Notes: generated from the sequence alone by a model not told the origin. Counted from the first letter of the stretch, positions 3,500 through 25,914 are shown. The stretch is DNA of 64,000 nucleotides from Eubacteriales bacterium (GCA_045543495.1 JAZQMO010000019.1:17056-81055); one strand, 5' to 3'. Numbers and translations: made by a program.

Positions 3500-3520
3500 G
3501 TGTTTCCCTCGCTTTCTTTG

Positions 3521-4450: not shown

Positions 4451-4480
4451 TTGCTTTCTCTTTCTGTGAAACGATACAAT
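4451..4480 (+). promoter_or_regulatory. Sigma-A type promoter of array unit 1
   Basis: TTGCTT (4451-4456), 18-nt spacer, TACAAT (4475-4480). Confidence 0.4.
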
Positions 4481-4536
4481 AAAGGTAAATCAAACTCCGA
4501 TTTTTCTTTCCGAAAATCGGCAAAAGGAGAATGACA

Positions 4537-10287: not shown

Positions 10288-10308
10288 TCTTTCCCTGCAG
10301 CGCTTTTT

Positions 10309-10337
10309 GGGATGGGCTTTTTGCCCGTCCCTTTTTA
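10309..10337 (+). terminator. Rho-independent terminator after paralog 4
   Basis: GGGATGGGC(10309-10317)/GCCCGTCCC(10323-10331, one G-U pair) followed by TTTTT. Confidence 0.6.
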
Positions 10338-10386
10338 TATGTTCTGTGACTTTTTTTGTGTGATGGGGGATTTTTTTCTTTTTTTC

Positions 10387-10415
10387 TTGCGAAAAGGCCC
10401 GAACTGAATTATAAT
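10387..10415 (+). promoter_or_regulatory. Sigma-A type promoter of array unit 4
   Basis: TTGCGA (10387-10392), 17-nt spacer, TATAAT (10410-10415). Confidence 0.55.
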
Positions 10416-10443
10416 GGGGGTAATCTATAAGCAGGAGGCTATT

Positions 10444-11823
10444 ATGAAAAAAATAGTGAGTATCTTACTCCTTCTTTGTATTCTTCTGACCCTTTGCTCT
10501 TGCTCCTCCTCTTTGGCGGCAGAAACGGCAGGGAAAACGGAGGAAACGAAAGACAAAATCGCAACGGGAGAGAAGGGCACCGAGGAAAAGGAGCGGGAGG
10601 AAGTGACCATTCCTCAGGGCTTTTCTGTCGGCTATGCCAAGGGAGAGGTCAATCCTGCGGTGGGCACGGGGCTCGGCGGCTACGGAACGCAGAATGACCG
10701 TGTCAGCGGAAGGATCATAGACGATCTGTATCTGACCTGCACCGCCATTTCCGACGGAGAAAACACCGTTCTCATCTTCTCCGGTGACTCCATTCACGTG
10801 GCAGGCTCCACCGCCGCCAAGGTGGGAAGCATTGCAGAAAAGAACTTTGGAATTCCCGCAGGGAATATTATCATCAACGCCACCCATACCCACGCAGGCC
10901 CCGCCATTCCCAATTCCAACGCCCCCGGCATTGCTTCTTACCTGAAAAAGTATTACGCCGTGGCAGAGGAAATGATCTATCAGGCGCTTTTGGATCTGGA
11001 GAATGCCACCGTCTATGCGGGCAGCACCGTTGCCGAGGGGATGAATTATGTTCGCCGCTATGTGAATATTCAGACCGGAGAATATGCGGGGAAAAACCTG
11101 CCTGACGGCTTGGATCCCGCCGTGTACGGTCACGAAACGGTGGCAGATCCCGAAATGCAGATCCTCCGCTTTGACCGTGCCACCAAGAAAGATGTGATCC
11201 TTTGCAACTGGCAGTGCCATCCCACTACAACGGGTAGCTCTACCGGCAGCACCGTTTCCGCAGACTTTATTGCCTACTTCCGCTCTGCCGTGGAGGAAGC
11301 GGGCCATCTCTTCTCCTATCATCAGGGGGCAGGCGGAAATCTGGTTGCAGGCAGCCGTATTGCAGGGAATCAATCAAACAGCGATTATATAAAATACGGA
11401 AAGGATCTTGCCGCAATCGCTCTCGGTGCTCTGGAAAAGCTCCCTCAGGTGGAATCGGGTAAGGTGCAGGCGAAAAAATACACCTTCACCGGCACACATT
11501 CGGAGGAATACAGAAAAAAGAATAAGATCGAAGCCACCACGGAAACCTTTTCTCTTTCGGTTCTTTCCATCGGAGATGTGGCCTTTGCCACCGCTCCCTG
11601 TGAGCTGCACGATACCCTCGGTGTGGAGATCAAGACAAAGTCTCCCTTCAAGTTGACCTTTGTCTGCGGCTATACCAACGGTACCGTAGGCTATATGCCT
11701 GCCTCCTTTGCCTTTGCAAACGGCGGCTACGAGGTGGAGAGCACCCATTTTGTTCAGGGCACGGGAGAGGCGATCGTAGCCGATCTTCTTGGCAATCTGA
11801 ACGAAATTTATACAACCAAATAA
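10444..11823 (+). CDS. Neutral-ceramidase-like amidohydrolase, paralog 5 (lipoprotein form)
   Basis: ORF 10414..11823. ATG 10444 follows an AGGAGG SD. MKKIVSILLLLCILLTLCSC signal/lipobox. 35-aa linker. NATHTHAGP, MNYVRRY, CNWQCHPTT, HQGAGGN, GGYEV. Confidence 0.8.
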   Translation: MKKIVSILLLLCILLTLCSCSSSLAAETAGKTEETKDKIATGEKGTEEKEREEVTIPQGFSVGYAKGEVNPAVGTGLGGYGTQNDRVSGRIIDDLYLTCTAISDGENTVLIFSGDSIHVAGSTAAKVGSIAEKNFGIPAGNIIINATHTHAGPAIPNSNAPGIASYLKKYYAVAEEMIYQALLDLENATVYAGSTVAEGMNYVRRYVNIQTGEYAGKNLPDGLDPAVYGHETVADPEMQILRFDRATKKDVILCNWQCHPTTTGSSTGSTVSADFIAYFRSAVEEAGHLFSYHQGAGGNLVAGSRIAGNQSNSDYIKYGKDLAAIALGALEKLPQVESGKVQAKKYTFTGTHSEEYRKKNKIEATTETFSLSVLSIGDVAFATAPCELHDTLGVEIKTKSPFKLTFVCGYTNGTVGYMPASFAFANGGYEVESTHFVQGTGEAIVADLLGNLNEIYTTK

Positions 11824-11927
11824 CGGAAGCAAAGCCGCCTTTTTCAAAAGGCGGCTTCGTTACAATTTGGACTTGTTTTTTGTGCAAAAGATTGTATTTT
11901 TCTTCTGTTTTTTGTGCTTTTCACACC

Positions 11928-11956
11928 TTGCTTGATCCTTTGTTTTTGTTTATAAT
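11928..11956 (+). promoter_or_regulatory. Sigma-A type promoter of array unit 5
   Basis: TTGCTT (11928-11933), 17-nt spacer, TATAAT (11951-11956). Confidence 0.55.
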
Positions 11957-11990
11957 AGAAATATACAGGAAATCTCAACGGAGGCTTATT

Positions 11991-13367
11991 ATGAAACGAA
12001 TTCTTGCTTTGCTTTTGTGCTTATCTTTGCTGTTTTCCGTCTCCTGTGCCGCCTCTCTCCCGAATCAAACCATAGGGAAAACCGAGGAAACGAAAACCCT
12101 CCCCGCAGTGGAAAGCACCACCGAGGAGGAGAGGGAAACAGGCCCCATCCAATTGCCCCAAGGCTTTTCCGCAGGCTGGGCAAGAGAGGTGGTCAATCCC
12201 GATCAGGGTACCAGCCTGGGCGGCTGGCCCACGGCGGAAAAGAGACTCAGCGGTGCCATTGTGGACGATATTAAATTGACCCTGACCGCCCTTTCCGACG
12301 GGGAAAAGGTGTTTTTCCTCTTTTCTACCGATGCTGTGGCGGTCTCCGAAAACCTCTTTGATCAATTTGCCGCTTTGGCAGAAAAAAATCACGGGGTGCC
12401 AAAGGAGCACGTCATCGTCAACGCCACCCATTGCCATTCGGCGCCCGCTTCCTATATTTCTGCCTTGCCCGGTGTTGCAAAGTATAACAGAAAGCTCTAT
12501 TCCGTGGTGGAAAAGCTGATGGATCAGGCCCTGCGGGATCTTGCTCCCGCCACCGTTTTGGTGGGCAGAAGCAAAACGGAAAATCTCAATTACGTTCGGC
12601 GCTATGTGACCCCCGACGGCAAAACCTATCTGGGCGGCACCGCCATGGCAACCGCCTCCTCCCAATACGCTCGCCACGAGACCGAGGCGGATAACGAAAT
12701 GCAGGTGATCCGCTTTGTGCGGGAGGAGAAAAAGGATATCGTTCTCTGCAACTGGCAGTGCCATCCCACCACAATGAGCTCCGAATTCGGCACCACCGTG
12801 TCTGCGGATTGGGTCGGCCCCTTCCGTGATGCCGTGGAGCAGGATGAGGACATCGTTTTTTCCTACCATCAGGGAGCGGCGGGCAATGTTGTTCCCTCCA
12901 CCCGTATTCAGGAGGAAAAGGGAAATGGGGACTATAACCTCCACGGCAAGGCTCTGGCCGAGGTGGCAAGAGCGGCGCTTCGTGATGCCGTTCCGGTGAA
13001 AACAGGCCCCTTTTCTGCCGTGCGGGAGGGCTTTGTGGCCACCCATTCCGATGCCTACAAGAAAAAATCGGGCACCCGATCCAATACCGATACCTTAAAT
13101 CTCACCGTGCTTTCCATCGGGGATGTGGCCTTTGTCACCAACCCCTGTGAAATGCACGATACCAACGGGCAGGAGGTCAAGGCCGCATCGCCTTATGAAA
13201 TGACCTTCGTCTGCGCCTACTCCAATGGCTCCAAAAGCTACATTCCCTCTTCTCTTGCCTTCCAAAACGGGGGGTATGAGGTCAATTCCTGTCACTTCGT
13301 TGCGGGAACGGGGGAGGCCATAGTGCAAAAGCTTTTGGAAATGCTGAACAATCAACACAACGGATAA
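11991..13367 (+). CDS. Neutral-ceramidase-like amidohydrolase, paralog 6 (lipoprotein form)
   Basis: ORF 11880..13367. ATG 11991 follows a GGAGG SD. MKRILALLLCLSLLFSVSC lipobox. 35-aa linker. NATHCHSAP, LNYVRRY, CNWQCHPTT, HQGAAGN, GGYEV. Confidence 0.8.
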   Translation: MKRILALLLCLSLLFSVSCAASLPNQTIGKTEETKTLPAVESTTEEERETGPIQLPQGFSAGWAREVVNPDQGTSLGGWPTAEKRLSGAIVDDIKLTLTALSDGEKVFFLFSTDAVAVSENLFDQFAALAEKNHGVPKEHVIVNATHCHSAPASYISALPGVAKYNRKLYSVVEKLMDQALRDLAPATVLVGRSKTENLNYVRRYVTPDGKTYLGGTAMATASSQYARHETEADNEMQVIRFVREEKKDIVLCNWQCHPTTMSSEFGTTVSADWVGPFRDAVEQDEDIVFSYHQGAAGNVVPSTRIQEEKGNGDYNLHGKALAEVARAALRDAVPVKTGPFSAVREGFVATHSDAYKKKSGTRSNTDTLNLTVLSIGDVAFVTNPCEMHDTNGQEVKAASPYEMTFVCAYSNGSKSYIPSSLAFQNGGYEVNSCHFVAGTGEAIVQKLLEMLNNQHNG

Positions 13368-13380
13368 AAGGAGAATTTCG

Positions 13381-14760
13381 ATGAGGCGAATCGTAGCTCT
13401 GGTGATGGCAATTTGGCTCCTCCTGTCCCTTGTCTCCTGCGCTTCTTCCCTTGCCGTTTCCGAAACGGCGCAGGATACAACACAAAAAGGGGAGAAAACG
13501 GAAGAAAAAACCGAAGAAACAGAGGCAGAAAAGGGCCCCATCATACTTCCCGAGGGCTTTTCCGTGGGCTTTGCAAGAAAGGTCATCAATCCCGAATCGG
13601 GGACGGGGCTTGGGGGCTTTGCCAACGGCTACAGCCGCCTTTCCACCGTGGTACAGGATGATCTGATGCTCACCTGCACCGCCTTTTCCGATGGGGAACA
13701 GGTCTTTCTGTTTTATTGCTATGATATTTCCTATGTAACGAACACCTTGGTGGATTCGGTCACGGCAAGGCTTGAAGGGCTCTTTGACGGCATCACCATC
13801 CCCCCTGAAAACGTGATGATCAATACCACCCATACTCACGCCGCTCCCGCTCTTTCGGATTCCAATACCCCCGGCATCGGGATCTACTTGAAAAAGCTTT
13901 ATCCCGCCTTCTATCAGGTGGCAGAGGATGCCCTTCGGGATCTTTCCCCCGCCACGGCCGAAATGGGCGTGACCCATACAAAGAACTTAAATTACGTCAG
14001 AAGATACGTGACCCCCGACGGCAAGACCTATCTCGGCAACTGGCCCGATTTTATGGACTCTACCGAGGGGCGCCACGAAACCGAGCCTGACAACACGATG
14101 CAGCTGCTTCGCTTCCGAAGAGAAGCGGGGAAGGATGTGGTACTGTGTAACTGGCAGTGCCACCCCTGCTCCCCCGGCATCGGAACGGCAAACGGCACCA
14201 AGGTCTCCTCTGACTGGATCGGCCCCATGAGAAAGCAGGTGGAAAAGACCGAGGACGTGCACTTTGCCTTTTTCCAAGGGGCCGCAGGCAATCTTGCCTC
14301 CAATACCCGTATTCAAGGGGAACAGGACAATAAGGACTATGTGGCCAAGGGCAGAAAGCTTGCCGAGGCAGTCAGCGGCGGCCTTGGGAATATGAAACAG
14401 GTGGAAACGGGAAGGCTTGCGGCAAAGCGGATCGAATATCCTCTCACCCGCCGTCCCGATAAGGGCGGCACCACGGATACCTTCTATCTTTCCGCCTTTT
14501 CTCTGGGGGAGATCGCCTTTGCCACCGCCCCTTACGAGATGCACGATACCAACGGCGTGCAGGTGAAGGAAGATTCCCCCTTTGAAATGACCTTTCTGTG
14601 CGCTTATACCAGCGGTATGTTCAGCTACATTCCCGCTTCCTTTGCCTTTGAAATGGGCGGGTATGAGGTGGAGAAATGCTATTACGAGAAAGGAACCGGT
14701 GAGATTCTGGCAAACAGGCTCATCACGCTGTTGGAGGAAATAGATGCTTCGCAAAAATAA
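13381..14760 (+). CDS. Neutral-ceramidase-like amidohydrolase, paralog 7 (lipoprotein form)
   Basis: 459 aa. MRRIVALVMAIWLLLSLVSC lipobox. 35-aa linker. NTTHTHAAP, LNYVRRY, CNWQCHPCS, FQGAAGN, GGYEV. Starts 13 nt after paralog 6. Confidence 0.8.
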   Translation: MRRIVALVMAIWLLLSLVSCASSLAVSETAQDTTQKGEKTEEKTEETEAEKGPIILPEGFSVGFARKVINPESGTGLGGFANGYSRLSTVVQDDLMLTCTAFSDGEQVFLFYCYDISYVTNTLVDSVTARLEGLFDGITIPPENVMINTTHTHAAPALSDSNTPGIGIYLKKLYPAFYQVAEDALRDLSPATAEMGVTHTKNLNYVRRYVTPDGKTYLGNWPDFMDSTEGRHETEPDNTMQLLRFRREAGKDVVLCNWQCHPCSPGIGTANGTKVSSDWIGPMRKQVEKTEDVHFAFFQGAAGNLASNTRIQGEQDNKDYVAKGRKLAEAVSGGLGNMKQVETGRLAAKRIEYPLTRRPDKGGTTDTFYLSAFSLGEIAFATAPYEMHDTNGVQVKEDSPFEMTFLCAYTSGMFSYIPASFAFEMGGYEVEKCYYEKGTGEILANRLITLLEEIDASQK

Positions 14761-17608: not shown

Positions 17609-18862
17609 ATGGATCAGATGAAAATGAAGCAGCAGGGAATTTCCATTCCCGAGGGCTTCTCCGTTGGCTTCGGCCGCAGAGGGATCAATCCCCCTCCCGG
17701 AACGGGTCTCGGAGGATGGGGCAACTCCGATGTGAGAGTGTCCGATCAGATCAAGGACGATCTGGTGCTCTCCTGTACTGCTATTTGTGATGGTGAGGGC
17801 TTTCTCCTGCTTTATTCTCAGGATACCACGCAGTCCGGCAAGTCTCTGCAGGAGACCTTTGCCGCCGAGATCTTTGAGCTTTACGGGATTCCCGCCGAGC
17901 GTGTGATCATCAACGCCACCCATTCTCACACCGCTCCCGATATTCTGTCCAAAAAAGCCGCCGGGCACGAGGCGTATCAAGCCCTGTACCGCACCGCCTT
18001 TTTTGAGGCTACGGCAGAGGCTCTTTCAGACCTTGCCCCCGCCGAGATTCTGGCAGGCAGAACCTATACCGAAGGGATCTCCTTCGTGCGCCGCTACCTT
18101 TCCAAAAAGGATGGTTCCTTCCTCGGCAACTGGCCGCCCTTTCAGTATCCCGAAGAGGCCTATCACGAGACCCGCCCCGATGAAATGCTTCAGGTCATTC
18201 GCTTTGTGAGAGAGGCGGGGAAGGATGTGGTGCTCTGCAACTGGCAGTGCCACCCCTGCTCCGAGCTTGCAGGCTCCAAAAAGAGCGATGTTTCCTCTGA
18301 CTGGGTAGGCGTTTGCCGCAGTCAGATCGAGGCCAGAGAGGATATTTTCTTCTCCTATCATCAGGGTGCCTGCGGCAATGTGGTTTCCGGCTCCAAGATG
18401 GCCAATGATTCTCCCTTGAGATACAAGGCAAAGGGACATAAGCTTTGCTTTTTCGTTCAGGAAGCCCTCCGTGGGGCAACGCCTGTGAAATCGGGCAAGA
18501 TCCGTGCCGAGAAGCACGATTTTTACGCTCCCCGCAGCCGTGAATGGATGGAGAAATTTGGGGCTGAGAAGGATCACGAGTATCTCAATCTTACCACCGC
18601 CTGCTTCGGAGACGTGGCCATTGCCACCGCTCCTAACGAGCTGCACGACACCTGCGGAAGATTCATCCGTGAGGGCTCTCCCTTTAAGATGACCTTCTTC
18701 TGTGGCTATACCAACGGCTCTCAGAGCTACATTCCCGCCGCCTTCTGCTGGGAAAACGGCGGCTATGAAGTAGGAAAATGCCACTTTGTCCGTGGTACGG
18801 GCGAGAAGCTGACCTATCATCACCTGGATCTCTTGAACGAATTTTACGAAACGAGGGACTGA
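17609..18862 (+). CDS. Neutral-ceramidase-like amidohydrolase, paralog 10 (cytoplasmic form)
   Basis: 417 aa. The ATG directly abuts the paralog 9 stop (TAAATG). NATHSHTAP, ISFVRRY, CNWQCHPCS, HQGACGN, FCWENGGYEV. Confidence 0.8.
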   Translation: MDQMKMKQQGISIPEGFSVGFGRRGINPPPGTGLGGWGNSDVRVSDQIKDDLVLSCTAICDGEGFLLLYSQDTTQSGKSLQETFAAEIFELYGIPAERVIINATHSHTAPDILSKKAAGHEAYQALYRTAFFEATAEALSDLAPAEILAGRTYTEGISFVRRYLSKKDGSFLGNWPPFQYPEEAYHETRPDEMLQVIRFVREAGKDVVLCNWQCHPCSELAGSKKSDVSSDWVGVCRSQIEAREDIFFSYHQGACGNVVSGSKMANDSPLRYKAKGHKLCFFVQEALRGATPVKSGKIRAEKHDFYAPRSREWMEKFGAEKDHEYLNLTTACFGDVAIATAPNELHDTCGRFIREGSPFKMTFFCGYTNGSQSYIPAAFCWENGGYEVGKCHFVRGTGEKLTYHHLDLLNEFYETRD

Positions 18863-18864
18863 AA

Positions 18865-20121
18865 ATGAATTCTCATGCATTCAAATCGGCGGGAGCCGCC
18901 CTTCCTCAAGGCTTTTCGGCGGGCTTCGGTCGCAGAACCGTGAACCCTGAGGCAGGGACCTGTCTGGCGGGCTTCGGAAATCCCAATCGCCTTTCGGAAA
19001 AGGTGGTGGATGATCTGATGATCACCTGCACCGCCCTTTGCGATTCGGAGCAGATCCTGCTGATCTATTCGCTGGATCTTTGCTCCACCCGTGAGAGTAT
19101 GGTGGAGCGCGTCGTCTCCTGTTTGGGAGAAAAATTCGGCATTCCCGCCGAAAATATCATCCTGAACGCCACCCATACCCACTGCGGCCCCGATCTTCAC
19201 GAGGTGGGTCACGCAGGAATCGAAGCCTATCGGGAGCAGTATTTTGCTTCGCTTGAGGAAGCGGGTCGGGAGGCCATCCTGGATCTTACCCCCTGCGAAA
19301 TCAAGGTGGGAAGAACCTATACCGAGGGGATCTCCTTTGTGCGCCGCTACCTGTCCAAGCACGATGGCTCCTTTATCGGCAATTGGCCCAAGCCGCAGAA
19401 AAGCGAGGATGCCTATCACGAGACCCGCCCCGATGAGATGCTTCAGGTCATTCGCTTTGTGCGAGAAGAAAAGAAGGATATCGTTCTTTGCAACTGGCAG
19501 TGCCATCCCTGCTCCGGCAGACTGGCAGGGGAAATGAGAACGGATGTTTCCTCCGACTTTATCGGCCCTATGCGTGAGGCCTTGGAGGCAGAGGAGGAGA
19601 TCCTCTTCTCCTATCAGCAGGGCGCCTGCGGAAACGTGGTATCGGGCACCAAGATCATCACCGAAATGACCCCTCTTAATTATCGGATCAAGGGAATGAT
19701 CCTGTGCGGTGCCGTGAAGGAAGCTTTGAAGGCCGCCTATCCCGTCAAGGCGGGGAAGATCCGTGCCGTGAAGGAAGAGCTTTCCTTGAAGCGGAATGCG
19801 GCCTTTATGGAAAAATGGAAGGTGACAACGGATGCGGAGACCCTGCATCTGTCCACCGTCAGCATCGGAGATGTGGCCTTTGCCACCGCTCCTTGCGAAT
19901 TGCACGACGCCTGCGGAAGATTTATCCGTGAGGGCTCTCCCTTTAAGATGACCTTCTTCTGTGGCTACACCAACGGGGGACACGGCTACATTCCTGCCTC
20001 CTTCTGCTGGGAAAACGGCGGCTATGAGGTGAACAAATGCCATTTCCACCGTGGTGCGGGAGAGAGGATCGTGCGCCATCATCTGGAACAACTTGGTAAG
20101 CTTTACGAGGAGAGAGAATAA
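18865..20121 (+). CDS. Neutral-ceramidase-like amidohydrolase, paralog 11 (cytoplasmic form)
   Basis: ORF 18778..20121. ATG 18865 lies 2 nt after the paralog 10 stop. MNSHAFKSAGAALPQGFSAGFG. NATHTHCGP, ISFVRRY, CNWQCHPCS, QQGACGN, FCWENGGYEV. Confidence 0.8.
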   Translation: MNSHAFKSAGAALPQGFSAGFGRRTVNPEAGTCLAGFGNPNRLSEKVVDDLMITCTALCDSEQILLIYSLDLCSTRESMVERVVSCLGEKFGIPAENIILNATHTHCGPDLHEVGHAGIEAYREQYFASLEEAGREAILDLTPCEIKVGRTYTEGISFVRRYLSKHDGSFIGNWPKPQKSEDAYHETRPDEMLQVIRFVREEKKDIVLCNWQCHPCSGRLAGEMRTDVSSDFIGPMREALEAEEEILFSYQQGACGNVVSGTKIITEMTPLNYRIKGMILCGAVKEALKAAYPVKAGKIRAVKEELSLKRNAAFMEKWKVTTDAETLHLSTVSIGDVAFATAPCELHDACGRFIREGSPFKMTFFCGYTNGGHGYIPASFCWENGGYEVNKCHFHRGAGERIVRHHLEQLGKLYEERE

Positions 20122-21369
20122 ATGGATCGGACCAAGCTTCGGGAATGGAAGATCGCCGTTCCCGAGGGCTTTTCGGCGGGCTGGGCCAGAGAGGTGATCA
20201 ATCCTCTCCCCGGTACCTGCCTCGGCGGGTGGGCCACCGCCTCCAAGCGCTTATGCGAGGAGATTTTAGATGATATTATGGCCACCTGTACCGCCCTTTC
20301 CGACGGAAAAAGCATTTTCCTCTTTTATTCCCACGATGCGCTCTACATCCGTGACACTATGCTGGACGAGCAGACCCGCCGAGTGTGGGAAAAATACGGG
20401 ATCCCCGCAGAAAATGTGGTGATGAATGCCACCCATTCCCATTCTGCTCCCATTCTCCATTATCCTAAAATGAGCGGGATGCCCGAGTATATGGAGCGCT
20501 TCTGGGCGGCGATGGATCGCATTACCGAGGCGGCCATTCGGGATCTTGCGGAGGCCAAGCTTTTCATCGGCACCGCTCACACCAAGAACTTAAACTTTGT
20601 CCGCCGCTATGTTTCCATAGACGGCAAGGAGTATTTGGGAGGCTCCGCTCTCCCCAAGGGGCAGGATCCCACCAAGGTTCGCCACGAGACCGAGCCCGAC
20701 ACCGAAATGCAGGTGTTCCGCTTGGAGCGGGAGGGCAAAAAGAATATCGTTATGGTGAACTGGCAGTGCCATCCCTGCTCCGCAGGGGTGGGAAAAGAGT
20801 GGGGAACAGGCGTTTCCGCCGACTGGGTGGGCCATCTTCGTATGGGGGCAGAGGAGCTTTTGGATGCGCACTTTGTATACCATCAGGGCTGTGCAGGCAA
20901 TCTTGCCAACGCCTCCAAGCTTCAGGGAGTTCAGGCCATTACCGATTATAAGGCCAAGGGCCGTGCTTTGGCAGAGTATGTAAAAGAGGCCTACGACAAC
21001 GCCGCTCCCGCCAAAACGGGCGTCTTTCAGGCAAGCCGTCAGAATTTCATCGCCACCAACAATGAGCGATACCGTGAAAAGGAAAAGGCGGGCGAGACCG
21101 CTTCCCTGTATCTGAATACGCTGTCGATCGGCGATGTGGCCTTCGTCACCGTTCCCTGTGAGTGGCACGATACCTGCGGCCGTATGGTGAAGGATGCCTC
21201 TCCCTTCAAAATGACCTTCGTCTGCGCTTATTCCAACGGTGTGTTCAGCTACATTCCCTCCGCTCTCGCTTATTCCAACGGTGGGTACGAGTCCAAAATG
21301 TGCCACTTTGTCCGTGGCACGGGAGAAAAGATCGCCGAGGCGCTCATTGATTCTCTGAAAAAGATCTGA
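20122..21369 (+). CDS. Neutral-ceramidase-like amidohydrolase, paralog 12 (cytoplasmic form)
   Basis: 415 aa. The ATG abuts the paralog 11 stop. VPEGFSAGWA, NATHSHSAP, LNFVRRY, VNWQCHPCS, HQGCAGN, GGYES. Confidence 0.8.
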   Translation: MDRTKLREWKIAVPEGFSAGWAREVINPLPGTCLGGWATASKRLCEEILDDIMATCTALSDGKSIFLFYSHDALYIRDTMLDEQTRRVWEKYGIPAENVVMNATHSHSAPILHYPKMSGMPEYMERFWAAMDRITEAAIRDLAEAKLFIGTAHTKNLNFVRRYVSIDGKEYLGGSALPKGQDPTKVRHETEPDTEMQVFRLEREGKKNIVMVNWQCHPCSAGVGKEWGTGVSADWVGHLRMGAEELLDAHFVYHQGCAGNLANASKLQGVQAITDYKAKGRALAEYVKEAYDNAAPAKTGVFQASRQNFIATNNERYREKEKAGETASLYLNTLSIGDVAFVTVPCEWHDTCGRMVKDASPFKMTFVCAYSNGVFSYIPSALAYSNGGYESKMCHFVRGTGEKIAEALIDSLKKI

Positions 21370-21580: not shown

Positions 21581-21784
21581 ATGATATATCTCTAACGAGA
21601 TATGATATACGGCTTTGCCGTATGATATATTTTCACTTCGTGAAAACATGATATAATATCCGTTCCTTAATATGCCGCAGGCATATATCATCGCTCGCAG
21701 AACGATATCATACCGAAGGTATATCACCCGTTCCGTAAAGGAACGGATATCATTGAGGCACACTTCCTTACAGAGTGTGCCTCA
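21581..21784. repeat. Heptamer/hairpin array: 4 direct ATGATAT followed by 4 inverted ATATCA(T/C), each spacer a distinct mini-palindrome
   Basis: ATGATAT starts at 21581, 21602, 21622 and 21648. The reverse complement ATATCAT starts at 21685, 21705 and 21747, and ATATCAC at 21721. Spacers are atctc-taac-gagat, acggc-ttt-gccgt, ttttcac-ttc-gtgaaaa, atgcc-gca-ggcat, cgctc-gca-gaacg, acc-gaa-ggt and ccgttcc-gtaaa-ggaacgg. A terminal 10-bp stem TGAGGCACAC/GTGTGCCTCA spans 21754-21784. Confidence 0.85.
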
Positions 21785-21800: not shown

Positions 21801-22544
21801 TTATCGCTCGATGCCAAGATCCTCTAAGCTCAGGGAGATGCCTTCGGTCTCTTCGTCATCAATTTCGGGCCCGTCCTCCGAGAGGGGGGTAGGGGGAATT
21901 TTCTTCTGCGGCTTCTCGCCTGCCGAAAGGCGAAGCCAAAGAGCAAGGGAATAGGAAAGATAATAGAGAAAAACGGAAATGACAAAGAAGCGGTAACGGA
22001 AGGAGGATAGGGTGCCGAGGGGCAGAAGCTGGGTGAAATAAAACTGCGAGAGCTTTTCATCCAGCGCAAAGGATAGGATCAAAAGAGTGCCTTCTATGAG
22101 AGCGTGGCCCAGACAAAGCTGAGCGGCAAGGCGGGAAAACAACGGATTCTTTGCCGAAAGGATCACCATAGCCCCCATCAAAAGAAGAAAAATGAGGGTG
22201 ATCAGCACCGTGCCGTGCACCTTTTTTCCTCCCGCAATGACCAAAATTTCCAGTGCTCCATAAAGGAAAAGGGGAAGGGCAGCGGGAATGGCAAAGGACA
22301 GACCCTGCGGGGAAGAGAAAAGACTTACCGCCAAGGCCAAGATCAGGCAGAAGGGAGCGGCCATCCAGCAAAGATCCGCCAGAAGAGACAGGGTACCCTG
22401 CTCGGTGGAAACGGGGATCTCAAAATAAGCATCCATTCCTCTCCCGTCGGAAAACCAGCCCCAGGCAAAAAAGGTAAAAAACAGCATCATCAGGGCCAAA
22501 AAAAGGGAAAGGCCGCAGCAGAGATAATAGCGAATTTGTTTCAT
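21801..22544 (-). CDS. Hypothetical multi-pass membrane protein with acidic C-terminal tail
   Basis: 247 aa. Several hydrophobic segments (e.g. LCCGLSLFLALMMLFFTFFAWGW, VLITLIFLLLMGAMVIL). C-terminus PEIDDEETEGISLSLEDLG. No recognisable family. Confidence 0.6.
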   Translation of the reverse strand: MKQIRYYLCCGLSLFLALMMLFFTFFAWGWFSDGRGMDAYFEIPVSTEQGTLSLLADLCWMAAPFCLILALAVSLFSSPQGLSFAIPAALPLFLYGALEILVIAGGKKVHGTVLITLIFLLLMGAMVILSAKNPLFSRLAAQLCLGHALIEGTLLILSFALDEKLSQFYFTQLLPLGTLSSFRYRFFVISVFLYYLSYSLALWLRLSAGEKPQKKIPPTPLSEDGPEIDDEETEGISLSLEDLGIER

Positions 22545-22664
22545 AGCGATCTCACTTTGTTTTGATTGCCTCTATTATAGAAAAAAATCCTCCTTCCGTC
22601 AAGACTTGGCATTGCGTGGCAGGCTCGCTGCGTGGTATGGTGTGAAAAAAAAGGAGGTTCAATC

Positions 22665-23057
22665 GTGAAGAAGTTAACAGAAAAAAAGGTAAAACGCTGT
22701 CTGGAGGAGTATTTTTCCTCCCGCCGAGTGGCAAAACGGAATTCGGAGGGGGAGATCCTTGTGGCCAAAACGGGGGAGATCCTCTTTGAGGAGCGTCCCT
22801 GCACCGTGACGGGACTTGCCCTTGCCTTGGGAATGAGCCGTCGGGAGGAGATGGATCAGATCAAGGAGAAAAAAGTAAAAGCGCTCATTGACCGAGCGCT
22901 TTTGAGAATTGAAGAGAGTGCCGAGGAAAAGCTTTTTTCCAAGGACACCGTCAACGGTGCCAAGCTGTTCCTTTCCACCAATTTTCGGCGTTGGCAGGGC
23001 ACGGTGGAGGAGGAAGCCCCCGCCAATTTGGGGGTCTGCACCCTGTGGGCCGAGTGA
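22665..23057 (+). CDS. Phage terminase small subunit-like protein (orphan)
   Basis: ORF 22632..23057. GTG 22665 follows an AGGAGG SD. The HTH-like block PCTVTGLALALGMSRRE and the C-terminal GAKLFLSTNFRRWQG resemble TerS proteins of Firmicute phages. Confidence 0.55.
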   Translation: MKKLTEKKVKRCLEEYFSSRRVAKRNSEGEILVAKTGEILFEERPCTVTGLALALGMSRREEMDQIKEKKVKALIDRALLRIEESAEEKLFSKDTVNGAKLFLSTNFRRWQGTVEEEAPANLGVCTLWAE

Positions 23058-23678
23058 TCACAGATCCAAAATCAAAAAGACCTTGCCCTGGTGAACCTGA
23101 ACCCGAGTCTCCCCTGCGATCTCATTGCTGACTCCCAAGGGAAAATCAATGGTGAGGGGAGCGTGGGACAAATTGTATTTTGCTCCCGAAACGGAAACGA
23201 TGGCCTTTTCCGTGGCGGAAAAGAGGGAAAAATAGCGGCAGGGCGCAAGGGAGATCTCTTCCCCCTGCTCCACAAGATCGATCCTGCATTTTAAATCCCG
23301 AATTTGCCCCTTGGCCCCCTTGGAGGAGAGGGTCAGAAGGGTGGAAAGGTTTGCCACGGTGTGGGAAAAGCGGTTTCCGCCCATGGCTCCGTAGAGAACG
23401 AAGCGGCGGTAGCCCAAATTCAGGCCCTCCCGCACGGCGGCGAGGGTATCGGTATCGTCCTTTACCTTGGGGAGAACAATGGATCTGACTCCTTCGGGAG
23501 AAAAGCCGAGGGAGTCCGAATCGCCAATATAAAGGTCGCAAGGGATGCCCGCCTCCCGTAAGAGGGCATAGCCTCGGTCTGCGGCGATGACAAGATCGCC
23601 CGCTTCTGTTTCAAAGACGGCGGGATCAAAATCCCCCGCTCCTACGATGCGGCAGACACCGCTTTTTCCTTCTGACAT
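23058..23678 (-). CDS. thiN: Thiamine diphosphokinase (thiamine pyrophosphokinase)
   Basis: 206 aa. IGDSDSLG and KVKDDTDTLAAV motifs typical of TPK. Downstream of thiT under a TPP riboswitch. Confidence 0.8.
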   Translation of the reverse strand: MSEGKSGVCRIVGAGDFDPAVFETEAGDLVIAADRGYALLREAGIPCDLYIGDSDSLGFSPEGVRSIVLPKVKDDTDTLAAVREGLNLGYRRFVLYGAMGGNRFSHTVANLSTLLTLSSKGAKGQIRDLKCRIDLVEQGEEISLAPCRYFSLFSATEKAIVSVSGAKYNLSHAPLTIDFPLGVSNEIAGETRVQVHQGKVFLILDL

Positions 23679-23684
23679 ATTACC

Positions 23685-24338
23685 TCAATTCTTTTTCACA
23701 AAGGGAAGTCGGGAAACGGGAATGGCGGCCACAAGGGTGATCACGGTCTCGGGAAGCATATAAAGCCCGTTGTATACCACGGAGTAAACAAGGGAAAGAG
23801 AAAAGCCCGAGAAGGTTTCCATGGCCCATTGGGAGATGGCAAAATCCTTGGCGGCGCTTTCCAAAAAGAACCATTCTGCCCAAGCCCCGTAGAAGATGGC
23901 ACCGGAGAGCACGTGGAACAGGTAGCAAAGGGCACAGCCTAAGATCGAGCCCGAAACCAGCGCCTTTGCAGGGGAGAGGTGGCGAAAGACGCCTCCGAGC
24001 CCCACCGAGGTAAAGGCGAGAATGTAATCCAGAAGCAAAATGGCAAAGGCCACTCCCACCGATCCCATATAGGAATCGGAATCGGGTAAAAACAGGCCCG
24101 AAACGGTCTTGAAGCCAATGGCCATCTGCAAGAGGGAATACACGAAGGCACTGCCAAGACCCCAGCGAACGCCATACAGATAAGAGATCAGAACAAGGGG
24201 CAAAAGGCTTGCGATGGTGACGGTGCCGCCGAAGGGGAGGTTTAAGAAGGGGATCCATTCGGATACCAGCGAAATGGCGCTGCCCAAGGCAATCAGCATT
24301 GCCGAGGTGACCAGCTTTTGTGTTTTGGTGTGATTCAT
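23685..24338 (-). CDS. thiT: Thiamine ECF-transporter S component (ThiT-like)
   Basis: 217 aa, about 6 TM segments. First gene after a TPP riboswitch and immediately upstream of thiN. Confidence 0.7.
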   Translation of the reverse strand: MNHTKTQKLVTSAMLIALGSAISLVSEWIPFLNLPFGGTVTIASLLPLVLISYLYGVRWGLGSAFVYSLLQMAIGFKTVSGLFLPDSDSYMGSVGVAFAILLLDYILAFTSVGLGGVFRHLSPAKALVSGSILGCALCYLFHVLSGAIFYGAWAEWFFLESAAKDFAISQWAMETFSGFSLSLVYSVVYNGLYMLPETVITLVAAIPVSRLPFVKKN

Positions 24339-24349
24339 ACGACACTCCT

Positions 24350-24485
24350 ATAAAAAAATTCGCACAGGACGGAAGTCCCGTGCGAACGTGAATCTGTTCT
24401 CCATAAAAACTCCCTACGCCGGTATTATCCATCTCAGGTGAAAGGGTTTGCATTTCTGCATCTCAGCCGTAGCACCCCTGTTTTT
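24350..24485 (-). promoter_or_regulatory. TPP (THI-box) riboswitch with terminator expression platform
   Basis: Minus strand reads GGGGTGCTACGGCTGAGATGCAGAAATGCAAACCCTTTCACCTGAGATGGATAATACCGGCGTAGGGA (about 24482-24410). This carries the CTGAGA and ACCTGA..GGATAATACC..GCG.AGGGA hallmarks. It is followed by hairpin CGCACGGG/CCTGTGCG (24384-24361) plus AATTTTTTTA. Confidence 0.9.
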
Positions 24486-24506
24486 TCCGCTCTTGTGCGT
24501 AGCCTT

Positions 24507-24535
24507 ATGATAACTTCTTTTTTTGGATTTGTCAA
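24507..24535 (-). promoter_or_regulatory. Sigma-A type promoter of the riboswitch-thiT-thiN unit
   Basis: Minus strand TTGACA (24535-24530), 17-nt spacer, TATCAT (24512-24507). Overlaps the 5' end of the terL ORF on the other strand. Confidence 0.5.
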
Positions 24536-24543
24536 GTAAAAAA

Positions 24544-25914
24544 ATGAATGCAACTGAAAAATTATTATCCACCCTGCACCCCTTTCCTCCGCAGGAGGCT
24601 TTTTTTCGTGCCCGTGCACGGCGCATCGCCTACGGCGGGGCGAGAGGGGGCGGGAAGAGCTTTGCCATGCGAGCAAAGCTTGTGCTCCTTGCTCTGCGCT
24701 ATCCCGGAATTCAGATCCTTCTGCTTCGGCGCACCTTTCCCGAGCTTCGGGAAAACCACATCAATCCCCTGCGCCGCTGGCTTTACGGCATTGCCACCTA
24801 TCGGGATTCCACCAAGGAATTTCTGTTCCCCGGCGGCTCCCGCATCAAGCTGGGCTACCTTTCGGAGGAGGGGGACGCCCTTCAGTATCAGGGTCAGGCC
24901 TATGAGGTCATCGGAATGGAGGAGGCCACGCAGTTTACGGAAAGTCAGTATTACGCCATGACCGAGTGCTGCCGCTTGGCGGGGCAGATGAAGGAAAAAT
25001 TTGTGCCCCGTATGTATTTTACCTGTAACCCCGGCGGGGTGGGACACGCTTGGGTCAAGCGCCTTTTCATTGATCGGGATTACCGAGCGGGGGAGGATGG
25101 GAGGGACTATGTTTTCATTCCCTCCACCGTTTATGACAACCGCTATCTCATTCAGGAAAATCCCGAGTATGTGCGAAGCCTGGAGAGCCTGCCGCCCCTG
25201 CGCCGCCGAGCTATGCTGGACGGAGATTGGGATGCCTTCGAGGGGCAGTATTTCACGGAATTTGACCGTGCCAAGCACGAAATCGCCCCCTTTGCCATTC
25301 CCTCCCATTGGCATCGCTTTGCCGCCTTGGACTACGGCCTTGATATGACCGCCTGCCTTTTATTTGCCTACCCGCCCGATCAGAGCCGCCTTGTGGTATA
25401 CGGGGAATTGTATGAGCCGGATCTTGTGCTCTCCCAAGCGGCGGAAAAGATCGTGGAAATGACCAAGGGGCAGAATCTGCGCTATGTCACTGCCTCTCCC
25501 GACCTTGCGGGGCGGCGGCAGGACGGGGGCAAATCGGGCTTTGATATTCTGCAAAAGGGCGGGGTCAAGGGCCTTGTCAGCGCCGATAACGCCCGCATCC
25601 CCGGCTGGCGCAGAGTGCGGGAATTTTTGCGGGCCGAGGGAGAGGAGGGGGCGTATCTGGGCATCTTTTCCAATTGCCGAAACCTGCTTCGCACCTTGCC
25701 CTCCCTCACCTTTGACCCCATCAAGACCGAGGATGCCGCCCTGACGCCCCACGAATATACCCACGCCCCCGATGCCCTGCGCTACGGTCTGTCCTCCCTG
25801 CCCTTTCTCCCCGGTGCCCCTTTGCCCAAAAAGGAAGAAAAATGGGATGTGGTGCAGTCCTTTTTCGGGAAGGAGCGCTCCCGCAGCGATTATCTTGGTT
25901 TTTTGAAAAAATAA
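24544..25914 (+). CDS. Phage terminase large subunit-like protein (orphan)
   Basis: ORF 24523..25914; first ATG at 24544. Walker A YGGARGGGKSF, Walker B-like EVIGMEEAT, a C-terminal RNaseH-like nuclease block (ALDYGLDMTAC...) and the terminal HAPDALRY typical of TerL. Confidence 0.8.
   Translation: MNATEKLLSTLHPFPPQEAFFRARARRIAYGGARGGGKSFAMRAKLVLLALRYPGIQILLLRRTFPELRENHINPLRRWLYGIATYRDSTKEFLFPGGSRIKLGYLSEEGDALQYQGQAYEVIGMEEATQFTESQYYAMTECCRLAGQMKEKFVPRMYFTCNPGGVGHAWVKRLFIDRDYRAGEDGRDYVFIPSTVYDNRYLIQENPEYVRSLESLPPLRRRAMLDGDWDAFEGQYFTEFDRAKHEIAPFAIPSHWHRFAALDYGLDMTACLLFAYPPDQSRLVVYGELYEPDLVLSQAAEKIVEMTKGQNLRYVTASPDLAGRRQDGGKSGFDILQKGGVKGLVSADNARIPGWRRVREFLRAEGEEGAYLGIFSNCRNLLRTLPSLTFDPIKTEDAALTPHEYTHAPDALRYGLSSLPFLPGAPLPKKEEKWDVVQSFFGKERSRSDYLGFLKK

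What the first reader, a model, noticed from the sequence alone, without database searches (positions are those of the whole stretch)
22665..25914. Orphan terminase small and large subunit genes split by a riboswitch-controlled thiamine salvage operon
A TerS-like gene (22665-23057) and an apparently full-length TerL-like gene (24544-25914) lie on the same strand. TerL has a Walker A GGARGGGKS, a nuclease block and a terminal HAPDALRY. The two are separated by 1.5 kb carrying thiN-thiT and a TPP riboswitch on the opposite strand. No portal, capsid, tail, integrase or lysis gene is visible anywhere in the 64-kb window. Both ORFs are uninterrupted. This is consistent with a domesticated or satellite-type packaging module, or with an odd rearrangement of a degraded prophage. 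An ArpU/RinA-like regulator, which normally sits directly upstream of terS in Firmicute phages, lies 19 kb away at 44177-44725.
Basis: partly seen in the sequence, partly recalled or inferred. Interest (0 to 1): 0.6.

Follow-up and report, generated by a model that had tools for sequence, protein, structure and literature searches.

The report
Split terminase genes of GTA-like element
The two "orphan" phage DNA-packaging genes are intact, strongly conserved chromosomal genes of uncultured gut/rumen Clostridia whose partner head genes (portal, capsid) lie at a second chromosomal site behind the same promoter motif in related genomes, which fits a domesticated phage-particle system (gene-transfer-agent-like) whose terminase operon was split by a thiamine-uptake cassette.

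Summary
The core observation holds. terS (22665-23057) and full-length terL (24544-25914) are separated by thiN, thiT and a TPP riboswitch on the opposite strand, and no other phage gene was found among the window ORFs scanned. The ArpU/RinA remark is unsupported.

The pair is not a decaying relic or a satellite.
- TerL relatives of at least 62% identity form one clade in 17 species-representative genomes. All lack an adjacent portal or capsid and keep fixed, syntenic chromosomal positions.
- TerL dN/dS is about 0.04-0.15, and dN is as low as in glnA or pgi.
- This clade is absent from 2.9 million viral contigs.

In at least five assemblies with such a TerL, and on one contig (L008), there is a separate terminase-less locus: portal, scaffold, P22-type capsid and 3-5 more genes. 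It carries the same upstream motif (TTGTCATTGCGTGKCAGTA) as terS.

The sister clade keeps a compact ~9 kb terS-to-holin cluster without integrase or replication genes, often beside lepA-hemW.

The thiT cassette sits exactly in the ancestral 1-nt terS/terL spacer. Its terminator hairpin is written into the terS coding sequence.

Best reading: the terminase of a multi-locus, GTA-like domesticated element. It resembles the recently described FpGTA in architecture but has a different capsid family. Particle production is inferred, not shown.

The parts
22606..22623 (+). Conserved upstream motif TTGGCATTGCGTGGCAGG (family consensus TTGTCATTGCGTGKCAGTA). It is a direct repeat TGKCA-N6-TGKCA overlapping the -35 position, so it is probably an activator site or promoter.
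   Evidence: The motif lies at the same place upstream of terS in Group A loci. It also lies upstream of the portal gene of the terminase-less structural loci L085, L086 and L087. The window has 1 match at <=3 mismatches against 0.02 expected by chance. The strict pattern TGKCATTGNNTGKCAG occurs in 8 of 87 loci, only upstream of terS or portal.
22636..22641 (+). Putative extended -10 element (TGgTATGGT), 14 nt after the motif.
   Evidence: Read from the sequence. A TAnAAT-like hexamer sits 12-13 nt after the motif in most related loci. This is an inference, not tested.
22665..23057 (+). terS, terminase small subunit (130 aa). GTG start with Shine-Dalgarno AAAGGAGG at 22651-22658.
   Evidence: Pfam GP3_package, E 3.1e-8. 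PHROG 606, E 7.9e-10. HTH-like P.TVTGLALALG.SR.EL motif and conserved C-terminal Trp. dN/dS 0.08-0.22.
22877..22903 (-). Intrinsic-terminator-like hairpin plus T-run for the thiT-thiN operon, embedded antisense in the terS coding sequence (terS residues KALIDRALL).
   Evidence: 11-bp stem plus ACTTTTTTCT tail. A hairpin sits at the homologous terS position in L006, L008, L009, L011, L017 and L018 (-14 to -29 kcal/mol), with C-G to T-A compensatory changes and a wholly different stem in the A2 subgroup. It has decayed in L007 (cassette lost) and is absent in A3 and Group B, which have no thiT.
23058..23678 (-). thiN, thiamine pyrophosphokinase. Its stop codon abuts the terS stop codon.
   Evidence: Pfam TPK_catalytic plus TPK_B1_binding. 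Coordinates.
23685..24338 (-). thiT, the thiamine-binding S component of an ECF transporter.
   Evidence: Pfam Thia_YuaJ, E 2.5e-20. Present between terS and terL in all thiT-clade loci except L007.
24358..24387 (-). Riboswitch expression platform: a terminator hairpin plus T-run.
   Evidence: 13-bp stem plus TTTTTTATAG. Equivalent hairpins occur in all thiT-clade loci examined.
24394..24489 (-). TPP riboswitch aptamer.
   Evidence: RF00059, 60.5 bits against a gathering score of 54.3. Found in 8 of 8 related loci, with its 5' end 29-55 nt from the terL ATG.
24507..24535 (-). thiT promoter (TTGACA, 17-nt spacer, TATCAT). The -35 box lies only 9 nt from the terL ATG.
   Evidence: 11 of 12 consensus positions match. 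The -35 box is conserved as TTTGTCAAG just upstream of terL in the thiT clade.
24544..25914 (+). terL, terminase large subunit (456 aa): ATPase plus RNase-H-like nuclease, with all catalytic motifs intact. No obvious Shine-Dalgarno sequence.
   Evidence: dN/dS 0.04-0.15.

Best explanation
terS and terL are the functional terminase (DNA-packaging enzyme) of a domesticated, chromosomally fixed, multi-locus phage-derived particle system. It is most like a gene transfer agent (GTA).

Proposed history:
- The ancestor was a compact ~9 kb podovirus-type cluster: terS-terL-P22-type portal-scaffold-P22-type coat-3 or 4 virion proteins-holin. The sister clade still has this cluster, often next to lepA-hemW.
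- At the base of the window's clade the cluster was broken up. terS-terL stayed in the old lepA-hemW-hrcA...prmA chromosomal neighbourhood.
- The portal-scaffold-capsid-virion genes now sit at another chromosomal site. They lie behind a copy of the same promoter/operator motif (TGKCA-N6-TGKCA, then a -10 element), so the loci are co-regulated.
- Later, a thiT cassette with its promoter and TPP riboswitch inserted, in inverted orientation, exactly into the 1-nt spacer between the terS stop and the terL ATG. thiN was added in the window's subclade.
- The cassette's transcription terminator evolved inside the terS coding sequence.

Shown:
- Intact genes.
- Purifying selection.
- Single origin of the clade.
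- Fixed synteny.
- Co-occurrence with a terminase-less head locus in relatives.
- The shared motif.
- The embedded terminator.

Inferred:
- The window's own genome has the head locus.
- Particles are made.
- They package host DNA.
- terL is expressed either by read-through from the terS promoter, antisense to thiN-thiT, or from an unrecognised promoter inside the thiT leader.
For: (1) Family and integrity..

(2) Single clade.
- In an NJ tree of 81 TerLs, all TerLs of at least 62% identity group together as sister to the compact-cluster group.
- That clade comprises 17 species-representative genomes plus the metagenome locus L002.
- None has a portal or capsid within 10 kb downstream of terL. 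L008 has capsid-module genes about 5-8 kb upstream.

(3) Vertical inheritance.
- Five A3 species share glnA-pgi-terS-terL-recombinase-prmA-rsmE-ftsEX.
- At least eight A1 species share C7-C15-up247-terS-<thiN-<thiT-terL-queG-like.
- No assembly prefix carries both Group A and Group B TerL.

(4) Selection.
- TerL dN/dS is 0.04-0.15. In L006/L008, dN is 0.05 and dS about 1.4.
- TerL dN (0.13-0.17) is similar to GlnA and PGI and lower than HrcA, CarD, PrmA and RsmE in the same genome pairs.

(5) Partner locus.
- L085, L086, L087 and L091 all read: housekeeping genes | P22_portal - p130-150 - Phage_capsid_4 (278 aa) - 3-5 virion proteins | housekeeping genes. None has a terminase.
- The capsid family is 66-98% identical across more than 100 clusters.

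(6) Same genomes, judged by GenBank accession blocks.
- TerL MBR2615903 with capsid MBR2615961.
- TerL MBQ9544301 with capsid MBQ9545233.
- TerL HAZ19037-39, HBE14416 and HCG35868 with capsids HAZ20312, HBE12612 and HCG35424.
- L008 holds both loci within 10 kb.

(7) Shared cis motif upstream of terS and of portal.

(8) The sister Group B cluster has no integrase or replication genes. It is flanked by mtnA, secDF, lepA (16 loci) and hemW (8 loci).

(9) Not viral. The best IMG/VR TerL identity is 57%. The best cultured phage reaches 38%.

(10) Precedent. FpGTA of Faecalibacterium is a two-locus, podovirus-like GTA-like element. GTA-like packaging has been observed in Ruminococcaceae, Oscillospiraceae and Christensenellaceae (PMC12946183).
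Against: - No experimental evidence of particles or DNA packaging exists for this family.
- Only 64 kb of the window's own genome was available, so the presence of its portal-capsid locus is inferred from relatives. The closest relative with proof has a TerL 81% identical.
- No lysis or receptor-binding locus was identified for Group A.
- Co-occurrence rests on accession-number proximity plus one contig. Whole genomes were not inspected.
- TerS keeps an HTH-like motif, unlike the DNA-binding-domain-less TerS reported for RcGTA and FpGTA. Packaging could therefore be sequence-specific.
- terL has no recognisable promoter or Shine-Dalgarno sequence in most thiT-clade loci. Its expression is assumed from purifying selection only.
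- L012 has a hairpin directly after terS that may block read-through.
Confidence: 0.65

Rival explanations
1. The terminase pair has been repurposed for a job that is not capsid packaging, for example an ATP-driven nuclease or translocase in defence or DNA metabolism. On this view the portal-capsid locus found in related genomes is an unrelated relic.
For: - terS/terL are physically separate from all structural genes in every Group A locus except L008.
- terL lacks an obvious promoter and Shine-Dalgarno sequence.
- A second, independent set of TerLs without adjacent portals exists (L054, L063, L066). This suggests that stand-alone terminases recur.
Against: - The portal-capsid locus is as conserved as TerL (66-98% identity).
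- It co-occurs with TerL in the same assemblies.
- It carries the same upstream motif as terS.
- TerL keeps every motif needed for a packaging terminase.
- TerS keeps the conserved C-terminal Trp region typical of the family.
- PADLOC defence models were not scanned.
Confidence: 0.15
2. A satellite-type (PICI-like) or otherwise mobile packaging module that hijacks capsids of infecting helper phages.
For: - A terS/terL pair without head genes is what some satellites carry.
- In the A3 subgroup a large serine recombinase lies directly downstream of terL.
Against: - No integrase lies within 10 kb in the A1 and A2 loci, nor among the window ORFs scanned.
- Neighbours are identical across 5-8 species per subgroup.
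- The pair is interrupted by a host thiamine operon.
- No Group A TerL occurs among 2.9 million viral contigs.
- Cognate head genes are in the same genomes.
- Even the A3 recombinase sits at a fixed position in all five species.
Confidence: 0.07
3. Random, neutrally decaying fragments of an old prophage, rearranged by the chance insertion of thiT-thiN.
For: - No phage genes are nearby in the window.
- Some MAGs show fragmented TerL ORFs (P0043 with P0274; HAZ19037-39). These could be pseudogenes or assembly errors.
Against: - ORFs are intact in all 18 Group A loci examined.
- dN/dS is far below 1, with dS saturated.
- More than 130 TerL positions are invariant, including all catalytic motifs.
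- TerL is the most conserved protein of its neighbourhood: 84% against 45-74% for its neighbours in the window/L001 comparison.
Confidence: 0.03
4. Part of a still-autonomous temperate phage whose genes merely look dispersed because of MAG mis-assembly.
For: All related sequences are MAG or metagenome contigs.
Against: - The same junctions with housekeeping genes recur in independent assemblies and studies. For terS/terL. For the portal locus.
- Contigs reach 100-400 kb.
- No replication or lysogeny genes are adjacent.
Confidence: 0.03

Closest known systems
FpGTA of Faecalibacterium prausnitzii (PMC12946183, Nat Commun 2026)
   Same: - A phage-derived cluster in gut Oscillospirales with the gene order terS-terL-portal-(small protein)-major capsid-hypothetical virion proteins. 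It is about 10 kb, podovirus-like, and has no replication or integration genes.
- Additional genes lie at a second chromosomal locus.
- The sister Group B cluster here has the same architecture and size.
   Different: - The FpGTA capsid is annotated as N4-gp56 family and is preceded by a Prp protease.
- The capsids here are P22-coat-like (Pfam Phage_capsid_4), preceded by a 130-180 aa scaffold-like protein. They give no NCBIfam hit at all.
- In FpGTA the terminase stays with the head genes and the second locus holds tail and lysis genes. Here the terminase itself is separated from portal and capsid, and terS is separated from terL.
- Homology of TerL and portal to FpGTA could not be tested, because no Faecalibacterium sequence was available.
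- FpGTA has experimental support. This family has none.
RcGTA-type gene transfer agents of Alphaproteobacteria (general knowledge, and as summarised in PMC12946183)
   Same: - Vertically inherited, under purifying selection, with no replication or integration module.
- Genes lie in several loci under common host regulation.
- terS and terL begin the head cluster.
   Different: - Unrelated lineage: siphovirus-like, HK97-type heads, CtrA/GafA control.
- The RcGTA TerS lacks a DNA-binding domain, whereas the TerS here keeps an HTH-like motif.
- In RcGTA the terminase genes are not separated from portal and capsid.
P22/Sf6-like podovirus packaging and head module (gp3 TerS, gp2 TerL, gp1 portal, gp8 scaffold, gp5 coat)
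   Same: - Same gene order and same Pfam families: GP3_package, Terminase_6N, P22_portal and a P22-coat-like capsid.
- The TerL fold matches Sf6 gp2.
   Different: - Sequence identity to any cultured phage TerL is at most 38%.
- The coat protein is only 278 aa.
- There is no phage genome around the genes.
Excludon-type convergent or antisense operon arrangements (general knowledge, first described in Listeria)
   Same: Two functionally unrelated transcription units overlap on opposite strands. Here the thiT-thiN terminator lies about 155-180 nt inside terS, and any terS-to-terL read-through would be antisense to the whole thiamine operon.
   Different: No transcript data exist, so mutual regulation is purely hypothetical. 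At least one relative (L012) has a hairpin between terS and the cassette.

Membership tests
Phage large terminase (TerL) | N-terminal ASCE ATPase with a Walker A P-loop and a Walker B/catalytic Glu | tested here: met
   GGARGGGKS and MEEAT are invariant in 22 homologues. Pfam Terminase_3 and Terminase_6N both score above their cut-offs.
Phage large terminase (TerL) | C-terminal RNase-H-like nuclease domain with conserved acidic residues, in a full-length two-domain protein | tested here: met
   D263, D267 and D320 are invariant and the HAPDALRY motif is conserved. The AF2 model aligns over about 440 columns with full-length D6E, Sf6, T4 and HK97 terminases and with the P22 and SPP1 nuclease domains.
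Phage small terminase (TerS, P22 gp3 type) | Sequence match to the family. The ring oligomer and DNA binding are further defining properties. | tested here: met
   GP3_package scores 34.2 bits against a cut-off of 29.4. PHROG 606, E 7.9e-10. Oligomer formation and DNA binding are not testable here.
Gene transfer agent (GTA) | Phage-derived head and packaging genes without replication, lysogeny or integration genes | tested here: met
   This holds for the Group B clusters, for the Group A terS/terL loci and for the Group A portal-capsid loci. Exception: a fixed serine recombinase lies next to terL in the A3 subgroup.
Gene transfer agent (GTA) | Vertical inheritance at conserved chromosomal positions, under purifying selection | tested here: met
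   Synteny in 5-8 species per subgroup. A monophyletic clade. dN/dS 0.04-0.15. Absent from IMG/VR.
Gene transfer agent (GTA) | Genes dispersed over several loci under common regulation | tested here: met
   The same TGKCATTGNNTGKCAG motif lies upstream of terS and of portal, at separate loci. The regulator is unknown. This is shown for relatives, not for the window genome.
Gene transfer agent (GTA) | Particles package quasi-random host DNA in pieces too small to carry the whole gene set, and transfer it to other cells | not testable with these tools
   Needs particle purification and sequencing of the packaged DNA.
FpGTA family | [quoted passage not shown] | tested here: not met
   The capsids from L085 and L004, and the small proteins preceding them, give no NCBIfam hit at E <= 0.01. 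Their Pfam family is Phage_capsid_4.
FpGTA family | Sequence homology of TerL and portal to RCH50852.1 and RCH50851.1 | not tested
None is among the 80 best genome loci.
Phage satellite / PICI | A contiguous, integrase-bearing, excisable island found at variable insertion sites | tested here: not met
   A1 and A2 loci have no integrase. Synteny is fixed. The pair is interrupted by a host operon.
TPP riboswitch (RF00059) | Covariance-model score above the gathering threshold, followed by an expression platform upstream of a thiamine gene | tested here: met
   60.5 bits against 54.3. Terminator hairpin at 24387-24358, then thiT. Present in 8 of 8 related loci.

The most novel reading that the evidence does not exclude
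A previously undescribed GTA family, widespread in rumen and gut Oscillospirales, is encoded in three pieces: terS | terL | portal-capsid. The pieces are held together by one activator-dependent promoter motif.

In the window's clade, an inverted thiT(-thiN) cassette controlled by a TPP riboswitch sits inside the terminase operon. On this reading, terL is expressed by read-through from the terS promoter, antisense to the thiamine operon.

The consequences would be:
- When thiamine is scarce, the riboswitch lets the strong thiT promoter transcribe head-on through to a terminator written into the terS codons. That would suppress terminase.
- When thiamine pyrophosphate is abundant, the antisense transcript stops early and packaging is permitted.

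Particle production would then be gated by vitamin status through an excludon-like arrangement.
Probability: 0.15. Interest if true: 0.85.

Novelty: new variant of a known kind. Interest (0 to 1): 0.65.

Why it matters
GTA-like DNA packaging was recently observed at high levels in gut Ruminococcaceae, Oscillospiraceae and Christensenellaceae. A gene cluster has been assigned only for Faecalibacterium (PMC12946183).

What this family offers:
- It is a concrete candidate gene set for such activity in many uncultured rumen and gut Clostridia. About 100 TerL clusters (90% identity clustering) and more than 100 capsid clusters were found.
- It has a different capsid type from FpGTA.
- Its conserved promoter motif gives a direct handle on the unknown regulator and on further regulon members, such as lysis and receptor-binding genes.
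- It shows that "orphan terminase" calls in MAGs can mark split domesticated elements rather than junk.

The window also gives an unusual case of overlapping information. An intrinsic terminator for a vitamin-uptake operon is maintained, with compensatory changes, inside the coding sequence of a convergent gene.

Tried and rejected
- Sequence searches of TerL and TerS against PDB, both by phmmer and with a profile, gave nothing significant. A fold search was needed.
- The look-up of encoding contigs for the window's own TerL (P0001) found no record. The rest of the window genome could therefore not be inspected.
- An exact-motif scan of JGI metagenome contigs with TTGTCATTGCGTGKCAGTAT found nothing. 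More degenerate patterns would have given too many chance hits, so no third regulon locus was found.
- The motif is absent upstream of Group B terS. Some of those loci have a different direct repeat.
- The conserved membrane protein divergent from terS in A1 (up247, window 21801-22544) is not homologous to the gene at the same position in A2. It was therefore not counted as part of the system.
- The 9.6 kb faecal-virome contig MT836592.1 (TerL 49% identical) has the same gene order. It is an incomplete linear fragment without terminal repeats and is uninformative about autonomy.
- dS is saturated (above 1) in all available pairs, and YN00 failed for most. The dN/dS values are therefore approximate. 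The comparison of dN with housekeeping neighbours is the more robust statement.
- A sigma-54 reading of the motif was considered and rejected, because the GG/GC spacing does not fit the -24/-12 consensus (own knowledge).
- PADLOC was not run.

Full report
**1. What is in the window**

The window (52% G+C) is ordinary chromosome. It carries hrcA, a carD-like gene, seven ceramidase-like paralogues, a queG-like Fe-S protein, phosphoglucomutase, lon, engB and a DinG-type helicase.

At 22665-23057 (+) lies a 130-aa gene.
- It has a strong Shine-Dalgarno sequence and a GTG start.
- It matches P22 gp3-type small terminases: Pfam GP3_package, E 3.1e-8, above the cut-off, and PHROG 606, E 7.9e-10.

At 24544-25914 (+) lies a 456-aa large terminase.
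- It matches Pfam Terminase_3 and Terminase_6N.
- It matches PHROG 979 (E 1e-45) and PHROG 2 over residues 13-430.

Between the two genes, on the minus strand, lie:
- thiN, 23058-23678;
- thiT, 23685-24338;
- a TPP riboswitch, 24394-24489 (60.5 bits), with its terminator hairpin at 24387-24358;
- a near-consensus promoter at 24535-24507.

No portal, capsid, tail, integrase or lysis gene was found. This rests on Pfam scans of most larger ORFs and PHROG scans of terS, terL and ten ORFs without Pfam hits.

**2. TerL is complete and catalytically intact**

- In an alignment of 22 homologues of 57-84% identity, 134 positions are invariant. They include Walker A GGARGGGKS, MEEAT, TCNPGG, the nuclease acidic residues in LDYGLDMT and SPDL, and HAPDALRY.
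- Sequence searches against PDB were uninformative.
- An AlphaFold model (pLDDT 81.8) aligns over about 440 columns with full-length large terminases of phages D6E (E 5.8e-22), Sf6, T4 and HK97.

**3. The pair is a conserved chromosomal feature, not a local accident**

The protein database holds about 100 clusters (90% identity clustering) with 62-87% identity to the window TerL. They come from Clostridia, Oscillospiraceae and 'Ruminococcaceae' MAGs of ruminant and other guts, many on contigs of 100-400 kb.

A scan of one genome per species returned 80 loci. Mapping neighbours by tblastn, an NJ tree and gene clustering gives three groups.

*Group A* (TerL at least 62% identical; 17 species genomes plus the metagenome locus L002)
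- It is monophyletic.
- It never has a portal or capsid within 10 kb downstream of terL. One locus, L008, has capsid-module genes about 5-8 kb upstream.
- Subgroup A1, including the window: terS-<thiN-<thiT-terL-queG-like, with the same neighbours in at least eight species.
- Subgroup A2: terS-<thiT-terL.
- Subgroup A3: glnA-pgi-terS-terL-serine recombinase-prmA-rsmE-ftsEX, identical in five species.

*Group B* (about 40 species; TerL 55-65% identical)
- It keeps a compact ~9 kb cluster: terS-terL-P22_portal-scaffold-like-Phage_capsid_4-3 or 4 virion proteins-holin.
- It has no integrase or replication genes.
- In many loci it lies directly downstream of mtnA, secD, secF, lepA (16 loci) and hemW (8 loci).

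*Group C* mixes ordinary prophages, other compact clusters and another orphan-TerL set.

No assembly carries both a Group A and a Group B TerL.

The three contexts are:
- next to lepA-hemW (Group B);
- near hrcA-carD (A1, as in the window and L010);
- just upstream of prmA-rsmE (A3).

These are pieces of the lepA-hemN-hrcA-grpE-dnaK-dnaJ-prmA-rsmE neighbourhood known from Bacillus (own knowledge). That is consistent with one ancient acquisition followed by vertical descent.

**4. Selection**

- TerL dN/dS is 0.04-0.15 and TerS dN/dS is 0.08-0.22 (NG86). dS is saturated, so these are rough values.
- TerL dN between species pairs (0.13-0.17) equals that of GlnA and PGI. It is lower than that of HrcA, CarD, PrmA and RsmE in the same pairs.
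- Between the window and L001, TerL is 84% identical. The neighbours are lower: ThiT 74%, TerS 66%, ThiN 56%, QueG-like 51% and the upstream membrane protein 45%.
- No Group A TerL occurs among 2.9 million IMG/VR contigs; the best identity there is 57%. Relatives of 50-56% identity sit in 33-40 kb viral contigs.
- The best hit in the phage record collection is 49% identical, on a faecal-virome fragment. The best cultured phage reaches 38%.

**5. The missing head genes are elsewhere in the same genomes**

L008 carries scaffold, capsid and two virion genes about 5-8 kb upstream of its terS.

Its capsid has more than 100 homologue clusters at 66-98% identity. Four contexts were examined: L085, L086, L087 and L091. 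All read the same way:
- housekeeping genes;
- then P22_portal, a 130-150 aa protein, the 278-aa capsid, and three to five more proteins. One of these weakly matches a virion structural / head-closure family, and one matches a tail-fibre N-terminus;
- then housekeeping genes again.

None has a terminase.

GenBank accession blocks place a Group A TerL and such a capsid in the same assembly five times:
- MBR2615903 with MBR2615961;
- MBQ9544301 with MBQ9545233;
- HAZ19037-39 with HAZ20312;
- HBE14416 with HBE12612;
- HCG35868 with HCG35424.

For the last three, the TerL locus is terS-<thiT-terL in yet another chromosomal context (L089).

**6. The loci share a promoter motif**

Upstream of terS, in A1, A2 and A3 alike, lies TTGTCATTGCGTGKCAGTA, followed after 12-13 nt by a -10-like hexamer. 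The window version is TTGGCATTGCGTGGCAGG at 22606-22623.

The same sequence lies upstream of the portal gene in L085, L086 and L087. Variants occur in L089 (terS) and L091 (portal locus) of one organism.

- In the window there is one match at up to 3 mismatches, against 0.02 expected.
- The strict pattern occurs in 8 of 87 loci, only at these places.
- The geometry is a direct repeat at one helical turn that overlaps the -35 position, with no canonical -35 box. This suggests an activator-dependent promoter (inference).
- Group B lacks the motif. It therefore arose with, or after, the split.

**7. The thiamine cassette**

- In A3, in Group B and in L007, the terS stop and the terL ATG overlap or lie no more than 8 nt apart. 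The spacer is 1 nt in L002, L019 and L007.
- In the thiT clade, the cassette (promoter, riboswitch, thiT, with or without thiN) sits exactly in that spacer, inverted.
- The riboswitch is present in 8 of 8 loci tested, 29-55 nt from the terL ATG.
- The thiT -35 box lies 3-10 nt from the terL ATG. That leaves no room for a conventional terL promoter or, in most loci, a Shine-Dalgarno sequence.
- The terS and thiN stop codons abut.

The thiamine operon's terminator-like hairpin plus T-run lies inside terS, at 22903-22877 on the minus strand. At the homologous terS position:
- a hairpin of -14 to -29 kcal/mol occurs in L006, L008, L009, L011, L017 and L018;
- it shows C-G to T-A compensatory changes within A1 and an entirely different stem in A2;
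- it has decayed in L007 (-7 kcal/mol), which has lost the cassette;
- it is absent in A3 and Group B.

The TerS protein sequence there (KKVKALIDRALL) therefore appears shaped by the antisense terminator.

No conserved plus-strand terminator lies between terS and terL. Read-through from the terS promoter is thus a plausible source of terL mRNA. However, L012 has a hairpin right after terS that could block it, and an internal promoter cannot be excluded.

**8. Comparison with what is known**

A 2026 paper reports GTA-like packaging of 4.6-8.9 kb host DNA fragments in gut Ruminococcaceae, Oscillospiraceae and Christensenellaceae. It describes FpGTA of Faecalibacterium as follows (PMC12946183):
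- a 10.5 kb operon, terS-terL-portal-...-capsid;
- a second 5.5 kb locus with tail and lysis genes;
- capsids of about 40 nm, podovirus-like.

Group B has that architecture. The window's clade is a further-split derivative.

Membership in FpGTA itself is not supported.
- The FpGTA capsid is of the N4-gp56 family and is preceded by a Prp protease.
- The capsids here are P22-coat-like and match no NCBIfam model.
- TerL and portal homology to FpGTA could not be tested.

I found no other description of this family.

**9. Verdict**

The 'orphan' terminase is best explained as the packaging enzyme of a domesticated, multi-locus, GTA-like element (confidence 0.65).

Still inferred:
- that particles are produced;
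- what DNA they package;
- how terL is expressed;
- whether the window genome itself has the head locus.

The thiamine-gating idea is a low-probability but testable extension.

Noticed in passing
window 21680-21755 (-): A Gut-1 RNA motif (RF01706; 59.3 bits against a gathering score of 50) lies just downstream of the membrane-protein gene that diverges from terS. It was not found in eight related loci. Its function is unknown.
   Followed up: partly
window 4531-5781, 6005-7375, 10414-11823, 11880-13367, 13381-14760, 18778-20121, 20122-21369 (+): Seven paralogous genes match the N-terminal part of neutral/alkaline ceramidase (Pfam Ceramidase_alk, mostly near the cut-off). They form an expanded family between hrcA and terS. 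Relatives have only one or two copies nearby.
   Followed up: no
L002 11549-12886, and the same position in L014, L016, L019 and L068: A large serine recombinase (Resolvase plus Recombinase plus Zn_ribbon_recom) lies directly downstream of terL in all five A3 species. Its chromosomal position is fixed, and identity between species is 56-71%. No mobile element is evident. It could be the retained integrase of the ancestral phage with a new role.
   Followed up: partly
L007 9604-10003: L007 is nested within the thiT clade in the TerL tree. Yet it has the uninterrupted ancestral junction TGA-A-ATG and only a decayed remnant of the embedded hairpin and T-run in terS. This implies a precise secondary loss of the thiT-thiN cassette, possibly by recombination with an uninterrupted allele.
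   Followed up: partly
L054, L063, L066 (TerL at 3408-4772, 1352-2716 and 10001-11362): A second, separate clade of TerLs (53-56% identical to the window's) also lacks an adjacent portal or capsid. Separation of the terminase from the head genes may therefore have happened more than once.
   Followed up: no
L017 1128-1904 (-), L020 7735-8499 (-): In A2 loci the gene divergent from terS contains a GIDCSG motif typical of NlpC/P60 cell-wall endopeptidases. This was read by eye in a pairwise alignment. It is a possible lysis function next to the terminase locus.
   Followed up: no
L029, L032, L033, L053, about 60-140 nt upstream of terS: Group B loci lack the Group A motif. Several instead carry a tandem direct repeat, GGGATTTTCTTCGGAAAAAAGC, upstream of terS. 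This may be a different regulatory site.
   Followed up: no
L088 (MT836592.1, 1-9588): A 9.6 kb 'Bacteriophage sp.' contig from a human faecal virome has the same gene order: terS, terL (49% identical), portal, scaffold, a 278-aa capsid (40% identical to the Group A capsid) and a large virion protein. It ends in a collagen-like repeat gene. It is linear, has no terminal repeat and is incomplete.
   Followed up: partly
window 24523-24546: terL has no recognisable Shine-Dalgarno sequence in the window or in most thiT-clade loci; the sequence before the ATG is A-rich (AAGTAAAAAA ATG). L012 and L013 do have one. In the ancestral arrangement terL was probably translationally coupled to terS.
   Followed up: no
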